The notes under the pieces were generated by a model. That model had not been told where the DNA came from. It was given only the letters and a program-made list of their open reading frames with translations, and searched no databases. Positions 7,342-8,760 of a stretch of DNA of 64,000 bases are shown here, in pieces. Origin of the DNA: a virus. Where the stretch lies: positions 120,467 through 184,466 of the IMG/VR virus record IMGVR_UViG_3300021181_000006; one strand, written 5' to 3'. A program made the position numbers and the translations under genes. The stretch's first letter is position 1, and each line of letters begins with the position of its first letter.

Positions 7342-7913
7342 TATACCCACGCCTAATGGCGGTGGTTATACTCATTTTGGTTTATTTGCCACCAGCAACT
7401 TCGTTTTCTAATGAAGATGAGTTCATATCGGTAACACCACGTGCTCAACATGTGGCGTTACCGGTACAGATTCAGATTCCTAAGATTACACCTATTATAT
7501 ATACAGTTTTTGATGGAGAAACATTTGCAGTCTTACCAAACGGTATACTCAGTGATGCCAACGGATACCACTGGAAGCTATTGGAAGTCATTACCACCGC
7601 TTATACCTATCGCAGTGGCATTGAAAATGAAACAACGGCAACTCTTCAAGATGCTATTGCCAGCTACGGGATCGCTTCTTGCCCTGGAGCCCTACCTTAT
7701 GGCACATTGGTACACGTACCCAATTACGGTACCTATATCGTCGATGATTGTGGGCGTATTCCTAACGAGCAATTTGCTCGCGGAAATATTCTCCTAGATC
7801 TCAGAATACCACATCGTCGTTATGATGGCGTATGGCGTTCTGAAGCAGAATGTGTCAATATCTGTAATAAGCATGGTGTACAACATACTGTTGTGTTAGT
7901 TCAAGTTAATTGA
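7338..7913 (+). CDS. 3D-domain (MltA-like) cell-wall enzyme with N-terminal signal/TM segment
   Basis: TAY...TAT...GIASCPGALPYGTLVHVPNYGTYIVDDCG...LDL is the 3D-domain pattern. Confidence 0.75.
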   Translation: MIYPRLMAVVILILVYLPPATSFSNEDEFISVTPRAQHVALPVQIQIPKITPIIYTVFDGETFAVLPNGILSDANGYHWKLLEVITTAYTYRSGIENETTATLQDAIASYGIASCPGALPYGTLVHVPNYGTYIVDDCGRIPNEQFARGNILLDLRIPHRRYDGVWRSEAECVNICNKHGVQHTVVLVQVN

Positions 7914-8614
7914 GGATATGCATGGCGTTTAGGTAAAACAATACCTAAACGCTTAGCATATTTCTTAATTGCATTATCACTTACTCCAAGTATTTTTCCT
8001 ATAGATACATAGGATTTATGAGCAATAAGTATTTCTAAATCTTCTTTCGATATATGTATCTTGCGTTTTAATCTACGAATAGCTAAAAAATCATCTGAAT
8101 TATTATAACAAGATCTACATAAACCTGACTTTGTATCTTGCGATAGAATATTTTTGCAATTGATACAATGTATTACTTTTTTTGTCTTAATATAATAAGA
8201 ATAGTCTACTTTAGACAGATTGTAATCAGACTTTATCTTTTCTATTAATAACTTTATAAAATGCTCATCATACATTAGTGAATAATGATATTCATATAAA
8301 GACCATCCATGTGATAAAATTAAATTTCTTCTGTTTTGATAATAATCTTTCAATGTACCATCAGAGTTATAATGTTGATTGCCATTGATTTCGATACCAA
8401 CCTTTTTATCAGGGAAAGCAATATCTATAGAAAAAAATCTTTCTGGAAAGAGCGGCTGAAACTCAGGAACGTATGATATATTATTATCGATTAGTATATT
8501 TTTCAGTATTTCACATGGAACAGATGTAAATTTTTTGCTAGATTTCCATGGATGCTTTTCAGGGTTATTACGAAGATACATCCTACGAGCTTGTGATTTT
8601 AACGGATATTTCAT
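7901..8614 (-). CDS. free-standing Vsr/DUF559-like (PD-(D/E)xK) endonuclease with Zn ribbon and C-terminal HTH; putative homing endonuclease
   Basis: IDIAFPDKKVGIEINGNQHY; CINC...CRSC; SYVSIGKILGVSDNAIKK; AT-rich and antisense to the operon. Confidence 0.75.
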   Translation of the reverse strand: MKYPLKSQARRMYLRNNPEKHPWKSSKKFTSVPCEILKNILIDNNISYVPEFQPLFPERFFSIDIAFPDKKVGIEINGNQHYNSDGTLKDYYQNRRNLILSHGWSLYEYHYSLMYDEHFIKLLIEKIKSDYNLSKVDYSYYIKTKKVIHCINCKNILSQDTKSGLCRSCYNNSDDFLAIRRLKRKIHISKEDLEILIAHKSYVSIGKILGVSDNAIKKYAKRLGIVLPKRHAYPQLT

Positions 8615-8641: not shown

Positions 8642-8650
8642 TGGTATAAT
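8642..8650 (+). promoter_or_regulatory. extended -10 promoter (TGnTATAAT) upstream of the tRNA
   Basis: TGGTATAAT, 31 nt upstream of the tRNA 5' end. Confidence 0.6.
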
Positions 8651-8681: not shown

Positions 8682-8760
8682 GCCATTGTATCGGAACCGC
8701 CTTCTAAGCGGTAGCCCCGTAACTGGATCAATGTAGGTTCAACTCCTACCGATGGCGCCA
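8682..8760 (+). tRNA. non-canonical tRNA-Arg(UCU)-like RNA lacking a normal D-arm
   Basis: acceptor GCCATTG/CGATGGC + G + CCA; anticodon arm ACCGC-CTTCTAA-GCGGT; T-arm GTAGG-TTCAACT-CCTAC; only 7 nt at the D-arm position; 20-nt variable region. Confidence 0.8.

What the first reader, a model, noticed from the sequence alone, without database searches (positions are those of the whole stretch)
8682..8760. tRNA-Arg(UCU) with no D-arm and a D-loop-like sequence moved to the variable region
Seen: perfect acceptor, anticodon (UCU) and T arms with encoded CCA. Only 7 nt (TATCGGA) lie where the ~19-nt D-arm belongs. The 20-nt variable region AGCCCCGTAACTGGATCAAT contains AACTGGAT, which resembles a tRNA-Arg D-loop. 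Established: G18-G19 pair with the T-loop, and A20, C35 and a purine at position 73 are ArgRS identity elements. Inference: ATC/GAT and GG/CC pairings could place this GGA loop at the elbow from the 3' side of the anticodon arm, giving a topologically rearranged but functional tRNA. Alternatively it is a tRNA mimic or decoy against anticodon nucleases. It has its own TGnTATAAT promoter, which argues against a dead relic. I cannot check whether this class is already published.
Basis: partly seen in the sequence, partly recalled or inferred. Interest (0 to 1): 0.8.

Follow-up and report, generated by a model that had tools for sequence, protein, structure and literature searches.

The report
Phage arginine tRNA with rewired D-arm
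This 79-base phage gene is very probably a working arginine tRNA (anticodon UCU) that has every standard tRNA part, but one D-stem strand and the D-loop lie after the anticodon arm; phages including Felix O1 share this layout and I found no paper describing it.

Summary
Window 8682-8760 has a perfect 7-bp acceptor stem, a UCU anticodon arm, a normal T arm, G73 and an encoded CCA. Only 7 nt stand where the D-arm belongs, and 20 nt lie between the anticodon and T arms. Rfam calls it tRNA (39.2 bits, cut-off 29). ARAGORN calls nothing.

It is not a one-off. I collected 68 distinct relatives from viral contigs and GenBank phages. BLAST gave 257 GenBank phage records, including Salmonella phage Felix O1, mostly unannotated or labelled 'tRNA-OTHER'.

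A 3-bp helix joins the CGG after U8-A9 to the CCG just before a D-loop-like UAA-N-GGA. It covaries in eight complementary variants, and RNAalifold predicts it independently.

Anticodons are Arg in 67 of 68 (UCU, CCU, ACG, UCG). In 11 of 12 tRNA-rich loci they do not duplicate the ordinary Arg tRNAs present. This phage has no other Arg tRNA in 13 that ARAGORN found.

Best reading: a functional tRNA-Arg whose core is internally permuted. Expression, charging and the 3D fold are inferred, not shown.

This scan has reported the same family before on other DNA. Nine literature searches found no description.

The parts
8642..8650 (+). Extended -10 promoter-like motif TGGTATAAT, 31 nt upstream of the tRNA 5' end
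   Evidence: Read directly from the sequence. Consensus match only; the sigma-70 scan, which requires a -35 element, did not list it.
8682..8760 (+). Whole gene: rewired-core tRNA-Arg(UCU), 79 nt including the encoded CCA
   Evidence: Rfam tRNA 39.2 bits. Family covariance model R1 93.4 bits. ARAGORN calls nothing.
8682..8688 (+). Acceptor stem, 5' strand (pairs with 8750-8756)
   Evidence: Seven pairs. Across 56 relatives 99% of cells are paired and 6 of 7 pairs show double changes.
8689..8691 (+). U8, A9, then a pyrimidine that faces U at 8720 (taken as position 22 opposite 13)
   Evidence: T8 and A9 are invariant, also in hits from a pattern that did not constrain them. The position assignment is inference.
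8692..8694 (+). CGG: 5' strand of the D-like helix (plays the role of D-stem positions 23-25); pairs with 8717-8719
   Evidence: 98.8% paired against 74.5% in shuffles (0 of 500 reach the observed value) and 31-36% when slid. Eight complementary variants occur. RNAalifold predicts the helix independently.
8695..8695 (+). A, taken as position 26
   Evidence: A in 51 of 56 sequences. E. coli argU also has a single A between its D stem and the A27-U43, C28-G42 anticodon stem.
8696..8712 (+). Anticodon arm: 5-bp stem and loop CUUCUAA; anticodon UCU at 8703-8705
   Evidence: All 5 pairs covary. U33, C35 and A37 are invariant in A1.
8713..8716 (+). Linker AGCC (A-G conserved; taken as 44, 45 plus two joining nucleotides)
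   Evidence: A in 52 of 56 and G in 55 of 56 sequences; the next two positions vary. The linker is 8 nt in the Felix O1 subfamily.
8717..8720 (+). CCG plus U: 3' strand of the D-like helix (plays the role of D-stem positions 10-12, then 13)
8721..8732 (+). D-loop-like single strand AACUGGAUCAAU, read as A14 A15 C16 U17 G18 G19 A20 ... A21 ... U48
   Evidence: T-A-A, G-G-A and the final A-T are invariant or at least 96% conserved, including in hits whose search pattern left them free. E. coli argU has the D-loop AGUUGGAUA. The tertiary roles are inference.
8733..8749 (+). T arm: 5-bp stem and loop UUCAACU
   Evidence: 100% paired and 4 of 5 pairs covary. The T-loop is canonical, with T54 T55 C56 R57 A58.
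8750..8760 (+). Acceptor 3' strand (8750-8756), discriminator G73 (8757) and CCA (8758-8760)
   Evidence: In the family the discriminator is a purine in 61 of 68 and CCA is encoded in 56 of 68.
7901..8614 (-). Neighbouring divergent ORF (237 aa): HNH/homing-endonuclease-like. Context only, not part of the tRNA
   Evidence: PHROG HNH endonuclease families, E 6e-9 and 2e-8.

Best explanation
The gene encodes a working elongator tRNA-Arg(UCU) that the phage supplies to read AGA codons. It belongs to a phage-specific class of arginine tRNAs whose core is internally permuted.

After U8-A9 the chain runs straight into what is normally the 3' strand of the D stem (CGG), then A26 and the anticodon arm. 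Only afterwards, via a short A-G-N-N linker, come the other D-stem strand (CCG-U) and a D-loop (A14 A15 N N G18 G19 A20 ... A21). That loop leads through U48 into the T arm. The order is therefore [8,9][22-45][10-21][48,49...] in place of [8,9][10-21][22-45][46-48][49...].

Shown here:
- The three classical stems and the extra 3-bp helix exist and covary.
- The universally conserved tertiary nucleotides are present and conserved in the new order.
- The class is Arg-specific and phage-specific.

Inferred:
- The D-like helix stacks on the anticodon stem, and the GG docks on the T-loop, giving a normal-sized L-shape.
- RNase P and 3' trimming mature the RNA.
- The host ArgRS charges it through C35, U36, the A after GG (A20) and the purine at 73.
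- EF-Tu and the ribosome use it.

A likely origin, also inferred, is tandem duplication of the 10-48 block followed by loss of the outer pieces.
For: **Structure**
- All 20 pairs are 99.1% paired in 56 sequences, against 64.6% in shuffles.
- 18 pairs show changes on both sides.
- The D-like helix tested alone is 98.8% paired against 74.5% in shuffles (0 of 500), and 31-36% when slid.
- RNAalifold returns the same structure unaided.
- Eight complementary variants of the helix occur: CGG/CCG, CTC/GAG, CAC/GTG, CAG/CTG, CTG/CAG, CGA/TCG, CCG/CGG and ACC/GGT.
- Within Felixounavirus, Felix O1 and REP9 differ by a compensated G-C to U-A change in the anticodon stem.

**Core nucleotides**
- T8, A9, T-A-A, G-G-A and A-T before the T stem are invariant or nearly so, as is a canonical T-loop.
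- This also holds where the search pattern left these positions free.
- The helix count matches a normal tRNA: 5 bp, then A26, then 3 bp plus Y.U.
- E. coli argU shares A26, A27-U43, C28-G42, the loop CUUCUAA and the D-loop AGUUGGAUA.

**Function**
- Anticodons are UCU 61, CCU 3, ACG 2, UCG 1 and UAU 1 of 68.
- One contig carries UCU, CCU and ACG copies in tandem.
- In 11 of 12 tRNA-rich loci the odd anticodons do not duplicate the ordinary Arg tRNAs. Examples: L033 has odd UCU, CCU and ACG plus ordinary UCG. L061 has odd UCU and CCU plus ordinary CCG and ACG. L087 has 22 ordinary tRNAs, none of them Arg.
- The window's phage has 13 ordinary tRNAs by ARAGORN and none is Arg.
- AGA makes up 21% of Arg codons in this phage. 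It makes up 46% in Felix O1, whose only ordinary Arg tRNA is ACG.

**Distribution**
- BLAST finds 257 GenBank phage records.
- Three pattern scans of the viral contigs returned 18, 72 and 49 stretches, most of which score well above ordinary tRNAs with model R1.
- Only 7 pattern hits, 6 of them true, occur in the genomes of 185,579 prokaryote species.
Against: - There is no direct evidence of transcription, processing, aminoacylation or decoding for any member.
- The tertiary-fold model rests on sequence conservation and on reasoning from the known tRNA structure. Most putative tertiary partners are invariant, so they cannot covary, and no RNA 3D tool was available.
- The alignment is ascertained through sequence patterns and BLAST, so conservation percentages are inflated for the pattern positions.
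- A few phages carry both an odd and an ordinary tRNA-Arg(UCU) (L050/L071, L093), so the odd form is not always needed.
- One member is visibly broken (L037).
- A small subfamily (TGG/GCA, TAG/GTA) pairs only in a shifted register with a bulge.
- Later checks of similar claims elsewhere in this scan priced the bold reading at only 30-55%.
Confidence: 0.7

Rival explanations
1. It is a working tRNA-Arg, but the core does not reproduce the canonical fold. The CGG/CCG helix merely lengthens the anticodon arm, and the 3' segment is a flexible connector, as in D-armless mitochondrial tRNAs.
For: At the secondary-structure level the molecule is exactly an extended anticodon arm plus a single strand. 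No tertiary pair covaries. The best mutual information, between the D-loop alpha position and T-loop position 59, is weak at 0.49 bit.
Against: Eleven unpaired positions are invariant or nearly so, and they match the universal tertiary nucleotides U8, A14, R15, G18, G19, A21 and U48 together with a fully canonical T-loop. A flexible connector would not need them. Mitochondrial D-armless tRNAs are much shorter, have degenerate T-loops and use adapted factors (review PMC7609411). Here the host is an ordinary bacterium.
Confidence: 0.15
2. It is a tRNA mimic that does not act in translation. It could be a decoy for a host tRNA-Arg-directed nuclease or other defence, or a dedicated arginine donor for a non-ribosomal reaction.
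For: The unusual core could escape or trap host factors, and phage tRNAs are known to counter tRNA-targeting defences (general knowledge; not tested here). The gene stands alone, about 10 kb from the phage's main tRNA cluster, with its own promoter-like motif.
Against: A decoy or amino-acid donor has no need of four different Arg anticodons, nor of filling exactly the isoacceptors that are missing from the phage's ordinary set. The acceptor and T stems, purine 73 and CCA are kept as in elongator tRNAs. AGA is heavily used by carrier phages.
Confidence: 0.1
3. The rearranged gene is mainly a by-product of selfish DNA. It would be a cleavage-immune tRNA-Arg allele carried with freestanding homing endonucleases that target ordinary tRNA genes. 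This explains its spread, not its function, and is compatible with the best explanation.
For: An HNH-like ORF lies 67 nt upstream here. HNH genes abut the gene in SOVA965, Felix O1 and SSBI34. Up to 28 family matches to HNH or endonuclease VII type nucleases were found among 142 neighbouring ORFs. Ordinary tRNAs in the same loci gave roughly 10-14 of 142.
Against: The enrichment is at most about two-fold. It was measured on crude ORF calls with related contexts counted more than once, and a protein matching two families is counted twice. About three quarters of copies have no nuclease neighbour. No target site was tested.
Confidence: 0.2
4. It is a decaying pseudogene or a chance tRNA-like sequence.
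For: ARAGORN rejects it. One relative is truncated (L037).
Against: There is strong covariation in four helices across dozens of unrelated phages, and the structure-only descriptor found no hits in shuffled copies of the loci.
Confidence: 0.02

Closest known systems
Canonical class I bacterial and phage tRNA-Arg(UCU), e.g. E. coli argU (NC_000913.3 564723-564799; Rfam RF00005)
   Same: - 7-bp acceptor stem, purine 73 and CCA.
- A26, A27-U43, C28-G42 and anticodon loop CUUCUAA.
- A D-loop of the A-R-Y-Y-G-G-A-U type and a canonical T arm.
- Overall length of 77-79 nt.
- The same presumed job: reading AGA, which is rare in enterobacteria (established knowledge) and common in the phage.
   Different: - There is no D hairpin between position 9 and 26.
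- One D-stem strand and the D-loop lie after the anticodon arm.
- The D-like helix encloses the anticodon arm.
- The variable loop as such is replaced by a linker plus the relocated block.
[quoted passage not shown]
   Same: No D hairpin at the usual place; the anticodon helix is effectively extended; some also read AGN codons.
   Different: The mitochondrial forms are much shorter, have a reduced T arm and are described as flexible rather than rigidly L-shaped. From general knowledge, they also lack the G18-G19 to T-loop lock and rely on adapted mitochondrial factors. The phage tRNA is full length, keeps all the conserved core nucleotides and must work with ordinary bacterial enzymes.
Circularly permuted tRNA genes of Cyanidioschyzon merolae and other algae (PMC3728597)
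   Same: Parts of a tRNA are encoded in a non-standard order.
   Different: In those genes the 3' half lies upstream of the 5' half, and processing restores a normal cloverleaf tRNA. Here the acceptor strands are in normal order and closed, and the permutation is internal (block 10-48). No processing route to a normal tRNA is apparent, so the mature RNA itself would be permuted.
Class II tRNAs (Leu, Ser, Tyr) with a long variable arm
   Same: About 20 nt lie between the anticodon arm and the T arm.
   Different: Class II tRNAs keep a normal D arm, and their extra nucleotides form a hairpin of their own. Here no conserved hairpin forms in that segment, which instead pairs back to the 5' side of the anticodon arm.

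Membership tests
tRNA (Rfam RF00005) | Score at or above the curated gathering threshold | tested here: met
   39.2 bits against 29, covering model positions 1-71.
tRNA (cloverleaf) | D hairpin (3-4 bp stem, 7-11 nt loop) between positions 9 and 26 | tested here: not met
   Only 7 nt lie between the acceptor and anticodon stems. Rfam aligns 2 nt to a 13-position D-arm. ARAGORN rejects the window's gene and all 56 aligned members in their native order.
tRNA (cloverleaf) | 7-bp acceptor stem, 5-bp anticodon stem with a 7-nt loop (U33, purine 37), and a 5-bp T stem with a T-loop of the TTCRA type | tested here: met
tRNA (L-shape core) | Conserved tertiary nucleotides U8, A14, R15, G18, G19, A21, Y48, T54, Psi55, C56 and A58 | tested here: inconclusive
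   All are present and conserved, but in permuted order. Whether they form the usual contacts cannot be tested with these tools.
tRNA-Arg identity set for bacterial ArgRS (A20, C35, U/G36, A/G73; established knowledge, review PMC9976931 listed but not read) | C35 and U36 or G36 | tested here: met
   Anticodon UCU here; 67 of 68 family members have an Arg anticodon.
tRNA-Arg identity set for bacterial ArgRS | A20 in the D-loop | tested here: inconclusive
   An A follows G-G in 54 of 56 sequences, as in argU. It sits in a relocated loop, and its accessibility to ArgRS is unknown.
tRNA-Arg identity set for bacterial ArgRS | Purine at position 73 | tested here: met
   G at 8757; a purine in 61 of 68.
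Functional elongator tRNA | Expressed, processed, aminoacylated and used on the ribosome | not testable with these tools
   Only indirect support: isoacceptor complementarity and AGA usage.
D-armless mitochondrial-type tRNA | Short molecule (about 55-65 nt) with a reduced T arm and, from general knowledge, no G18-G19 lock | tested here: not met
   79 nt, with a canonical T-loop and a conserved GG.
Class II tRNA | Normal D arm plus a self-paired variable arm | tested here: not met
   No D arm, and no conserved hairpin in 8713-8732.
Permuted tRNA gene (C. merolae type) | The 3' half is encoded upstream of the 5' half, with the termini joined by processing | tested here: not met
   The acceptor 5' and 3' strands are in normal order at the two ends of the gene.

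The most novel reading that the evidence does not exclude
This is a natural, widespread, non-cloverleaf elongator tRNA that works with an ordinary bacterial translation apparatus. An internal circular permutation of the D-arm/anticodon-arm block preserves the L-shape through the same tertiary contacts made in a different chain order. The class may persist because the rearranged gene or RNA escapes something that recognises ordinary tRNA-Arg, such as a homing endonuclease cutting the gene or a host factor acting on the RNA. To my knowledge, and in nine literature searches, it is undescribed.
Probability: 0.4. Interest if true: 0.9.

Novelty: new variant of a known kind. Interest (0 to 1): 0.8.

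Why it matters
The cloverleaf is treated as universal outside organelles. A conserved class of tRNAs that keeps every functional part but connects them in another order would carry three lessons:
- The L-shape can be reached by more than one chain topology.
- It would give a natural test case for how RNase P, ArgRS, EF-Tu, modification enzymes and the ribosome read tRNA shape as opposed to connectivity.
- It would show that standard gene finders systematically miss real tRNAs in phage genomes.

On the last point, Felix O1 and hundreds of coliphage records lack this annotation, so their tRNA repertoires and codon-usage analyses are incomplete.

The class occurs in easily grown phages of E. coli and Salmonella, so every step is directly testable. 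The topology could also be useful for engineering orthogonal tRNAs.

Tried and rejected
It shows no compensatory change, and 5-6 sequences break each pair. Rejected.

2. **In-silico re-ordering of the segments into canonical order.** ARAGORN then of 56 as tRNA-Arg with a clean cloverleaf. It also accepts 68-91% of controls in which the moved block is scrambled or reversed. The test mostly measures spacing and adds little.

3. **Scoring the same constructs with a sequence HMM of 30 ordinary tRNA-Arg.** nhmmer aligned only the 3' two thirds, giving 24.0 bits for re-ordered against 22.9 for shuffled. Uninformative.

4. **Mutual information among unpaired columns.** Only a weak signal appeared, between the D-loop alpha position and T-loop position 59. 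It is not evidence on its own.

5. **DNA relatives of the window.** None were found in GenBank phages for an 8-kb stretch. The family member used as query also found nothing in E. coli complete genomes.

6. **Homing-endonuclease linkage.** Enrichment over ordinary tRNAs is at most about two-fold on crude ORF calls. Kept only as a side hypothesis.

7. **Class II tRNA, mitochondrial-type D-armless tRNA, permuted gene and pseudogene readings.** Each fails a defining feature (see the membership test).

8. **Literature.** Nine full-text searches and the review of non-canonical tRNAs (PMC7609411) gave no description of a phage or bacterial tRNA of this kind. Subscription-only papers are not covered.

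Full report
**The thing itself**

Window 8682-8760 (+) reads, in order:
- acceptor strand GCCATTG;
- U-A;
- U-CGG-A;
- anticodon arm ACCGC / CUUCUAA / GCGGU, with anticodon UCU at 8703-8705;
- AGCC;
- CCG-U;
- AACUGGAUCAAU;
- T arm GUAGG / UUCAACU / CCUAC;
- acceptor strand CGAUGGC;
- G73 and CCA.

Rfam's tRNA model matches at 39.2 bits (gathering score 29). It does so only by deleting the D-arm and inserting 17 nt in the variable region. ARAGORN finds no tRNA in the whole window. A TGGTATAAT extended -10 motif lies at 8642-8650. This is a consensus match only.

**Where it lies**

The window is the last 64 kb of a 184,466-bp viral contig, 94% complete by CheckV and 42% G+C. ARAGORN finds 13 ordinary tRNAs at 96-119 kb of that contig, and none is an arginine tRNA. 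The odd gene lies about 10 kb further on. It is divergent from an HNH-endonuclease-like ORF at 7901-8614. An 8-kb stretch next to it has no DNA-level relative among GenBank phages.

**It is a family**

- blastn against GenBank phages found the same architecture, unannotated, in Stenotrophomonas phage SOVA965 and Agrobacterium phage Atu_ph04.
- Three pattern scans of IMG/VR each left a different part of the molecule unconstrained. Together with a covariance model (R1), they gave 96 matches and 68 distinct sequences.
- One member used as a BLAST query hit 257 GenBank phage records. They include Salmonella phage Felix O1 (NC_005282 25951-26032, inside its tRNA cluster), wV8 and many other Felixounavirus records. 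They also include Klebsiella phages, the jumbo phage PBECO4 and Justusliebigvirus members.
- In these records the gene is mostly unannotated. It is sometimes overlapped by an ORF call, labelled 'tRNA' or 'tRNA-OTHER Nd_NNN', or, in Alishewanella phages, 'tRNA-Ser'.
- A comparable pattern found only 7 places in one genome each of 185,579 prokaryote species. Six are true members. Five of them lie on MAG contigs, and one lies next to a tRNA-Ser in a Phyllobacterium isolate, which looks like a prophage end.

The class is essentially phage-specific.

**Secondary structure**

On a 56-sequence MAFFT alignment, the acceptor, anticodon and T stems plus one extra helix are 99.1% paired. Shuffles give 64.6% (0 of 500 reach the observed value). 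Eighteen of 20 pairs show changes on both sides.

The extra helix joins the three nucleotides after U8-A9-Y (CGG here) to the three nucleotides just before the conserved U-A-A (CCG here). Tested alone, it is 98.8% paired against 74.5% in shuffles (0 of 500), and 31-36% when the partner is slid. RNAalifold predicts exactly this structure without being told.

Across the 68 distinct sequences the helix occurs in eight fully complementary versions: CGG/CCG, CTC/GAG, CAC/GTG, CAG/CTG, CTG/CAG, CGA/TCG, CCG/CGG and ACC/GGT. Four sequences of one subfamily pair only in a shifted register with a bulged G.

The evidence is not an artefact of the search patterns. The covarying versions came from the pattern that fixed neither strand. 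The pattern that fixed only the 5' strand returned CCG on the free strand in 20 of its 21 exclusive loci; the exception, L084, is not a family member.

**Reading the core (inference)**

The extra helix encloses the anticodon arm. Its 5' strand runs without a break through a single A into the 5' strand of the anticodon stem. In a normal tRNA, D-stem positions 22-25 run through position 26 into 27-31 in just this way.

Its 3' strand is followed by U, A-A, one or two variable nucleotides, G-G-A, and then a few nucleotides ending in A-U before the T stem. This matches 13, A14, R15, 16/17, G18, G19, A20 ... A21 ... U48. E. coli argU has the D-loop AGUUGGAUA. It also has the same A26, A27-U43, C28-G42 and CUUCUAA loop.

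U8, A9, U-A-A, G-G-A, the final A-U and a canonical T-loop are invariant or at least 96% conserved. This holds where the patterns left them free.

The stack is 5 bp, then A26, then 3 bp plus a Y.U layer. That is the length of a normal anticodon/D domain.

The simplest description is an internal circular permutation of the block 10-48. The old ends (45 and 10) are joined by the A-G-N-N linker, and new ends are opened between 21 and 22. In the known tRNA structure, positions 9 and 22-23, positions 45 and 10, and positions 21 and 48 are neighbours (established knowledge), so the new connections look sterically possible.

I could not test the 3D fold.

**Is it a working arginine tRNA?**

This is indirect evidence only.
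- Anticodons in the 68 sequences are UCU 61, CCU 3, ACG 2, UCG 1 and UAU 1. One contig has UCU, CCU and ACG copies in tandem.
- The loci hold 343 distinct ordinary class I tRNAs of all isotypes. Among them, a descriptor that ignores the anticodon found the rearranged form only with UCU (57), CCU (3) and UAU (1), and nothing in shuffles.
- In 11 of 12 tRNA-rich loci the rearranged tRNAs carry anticodons that the ordinary Arg tRNAs of the same locus lack. In L033 and L061 the two kinds together make a non-redundant set of four. L087 has 22 ordinary tRNAs and no ordinary Arg.
- Felix O1's only ordinary Arg tRNA is ACG. AGA is 46% of Arg codons in its first 50 kb, and 21% in the window's phage. 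AGA is among the rarest codons in enterobacteria (established knowledge).
- The discriminator is a purine in 61 of 68 and CCA is encoded in 56 of 68.

These points fit an elongator tRNA. They fit a decoy or a non-ribosomal donor poorly.

**Counter-points**

- Three contigs also have an ordinary UCU tRNA.
- One rearranged copy is truncated.
- Nothing here shows expression or charging.

**Neighbourhood**

Homing-type nuclease genes abut the gene here and in SOVA965, Felix O1 and SSBI34. Over about 100 contexts, up to 28 family matches to such nucleases were found among 142 neighbouring ORFs. The comparable figure for neighbours of ordinary tRNAs is roughly 10-14 of 142. The contrast is weak and crude. 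I keep 'cleavage-immune allele spread by homing' only as a side hypothesis about origin and spread.

**Comparison with the known**

It works like, and most resembles, an ordinary class I tRNA-Arg(UCU), but it fails the defining cloverleaf feature of a D hairpin between 9 and 26.

It is not one of the following:
- a mitochondrial-type D-armless tRNA, because it is full length with a canonical T-loop and a conserved GG;
- a class II tRNA, because it has no D arm and no variable hairpin;
- a permuted tRNA gene of the algal kind, because the acceptor strands are in normal order.

**Prior knowledge**

Nine full-text searches and the 2020 review of non-canonical tRNAs gave no description. Coverage excludes most subscription journals.

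This scan's own notebook shows the same family reported many times on other DNA, with the same reading. Later checks upheld the observation (93/100) and priced the bold reading at 30-55/100. I reached the reading independently before looking. I use those notes only for calibration and for the endonuclease lead.

**Verdict**

- Observation: confirmed.
- Interpretation: partly supported. The rearranged topology is right, and one of the two proposed pairings is wrong.
- Most likely a functional phage tRNA-Arg(UCU) of an undescribed, internally permuted architecture: about 0.8 that it is a working Arg tRNA, and about 0.6 that the core reproduces the canonical fold.
- Novelty class: new variant of a known kind.
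- Interest: high.

Noticed in passing
Own genome G000:C1:106773-106852 (outside the window, about 13.6 kb upstream of its start): A second tRNA-like gene that ARAGORN misses at default settings. It has a good acceptor stem, T arm and CCA, anticodon UAU (Ile, AUA), and a 22-nt D region with no convincing stem. It scores 26 bits with model R1 and is not of the rearranged Arg type.
   Followed up: partly
L044:4648-4744 (-), next to an ordinary family member at L044:4566-4644: A family member with anticodon UAU and a hairpin-like insertion of about 20 nt right after the GG. Both Arg identity nucleotides (C35 and the A after GG) are lost, so this may be an identity switch on the rearranged scaffold.
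   Followed up: no
L079:3449-3540 (-) and L085:7535-7626 (-): A 92-nt variant in which AGGC after the anticodon arm can pair with GCCU before the T arm. That pairing would cross the CGG/CCG helix and make the fold a pseudoknot.
   Followed up: no
L033:1175-1539 (-); also L041 and L061: Several rearranged Arg tRNAs occur in one phage: UCU, CCU and ACG in tandem in L033; UCU, CCU and UCG in L041; and UCU and CCU in L061.
   Followed up: partly
L102:3000-3081 (Felix O1, NC_005282 25951-26032): The RefSeq record has no feature for this tRNA. The annotated start of the 'HNH endonuclease' ORF45 (26003) lies inside the tRNA gene, so that start codon is probably miscalled.
   Followed up: no
window 7901-8614 (-): An HNH/homing-endonuclease-like ORF lies divergent from the tRNA, 67 nt away. 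Similar nucleases flank the gene in several unrelated phages, at most about twice as often as they flank ordinary tRNAs.
   Followed up: partly
L111:1145-1222 (Phyllobacterium salinisoli NZ_QOZG01000004.1): This is the only hit in an isolate's chromosome. The rearranged tRNA sits about 700 nt from a tRNA-Ser(CGA) on the other strand, which looks like a prophage end at a tRNA integration site.
   Followed up: no
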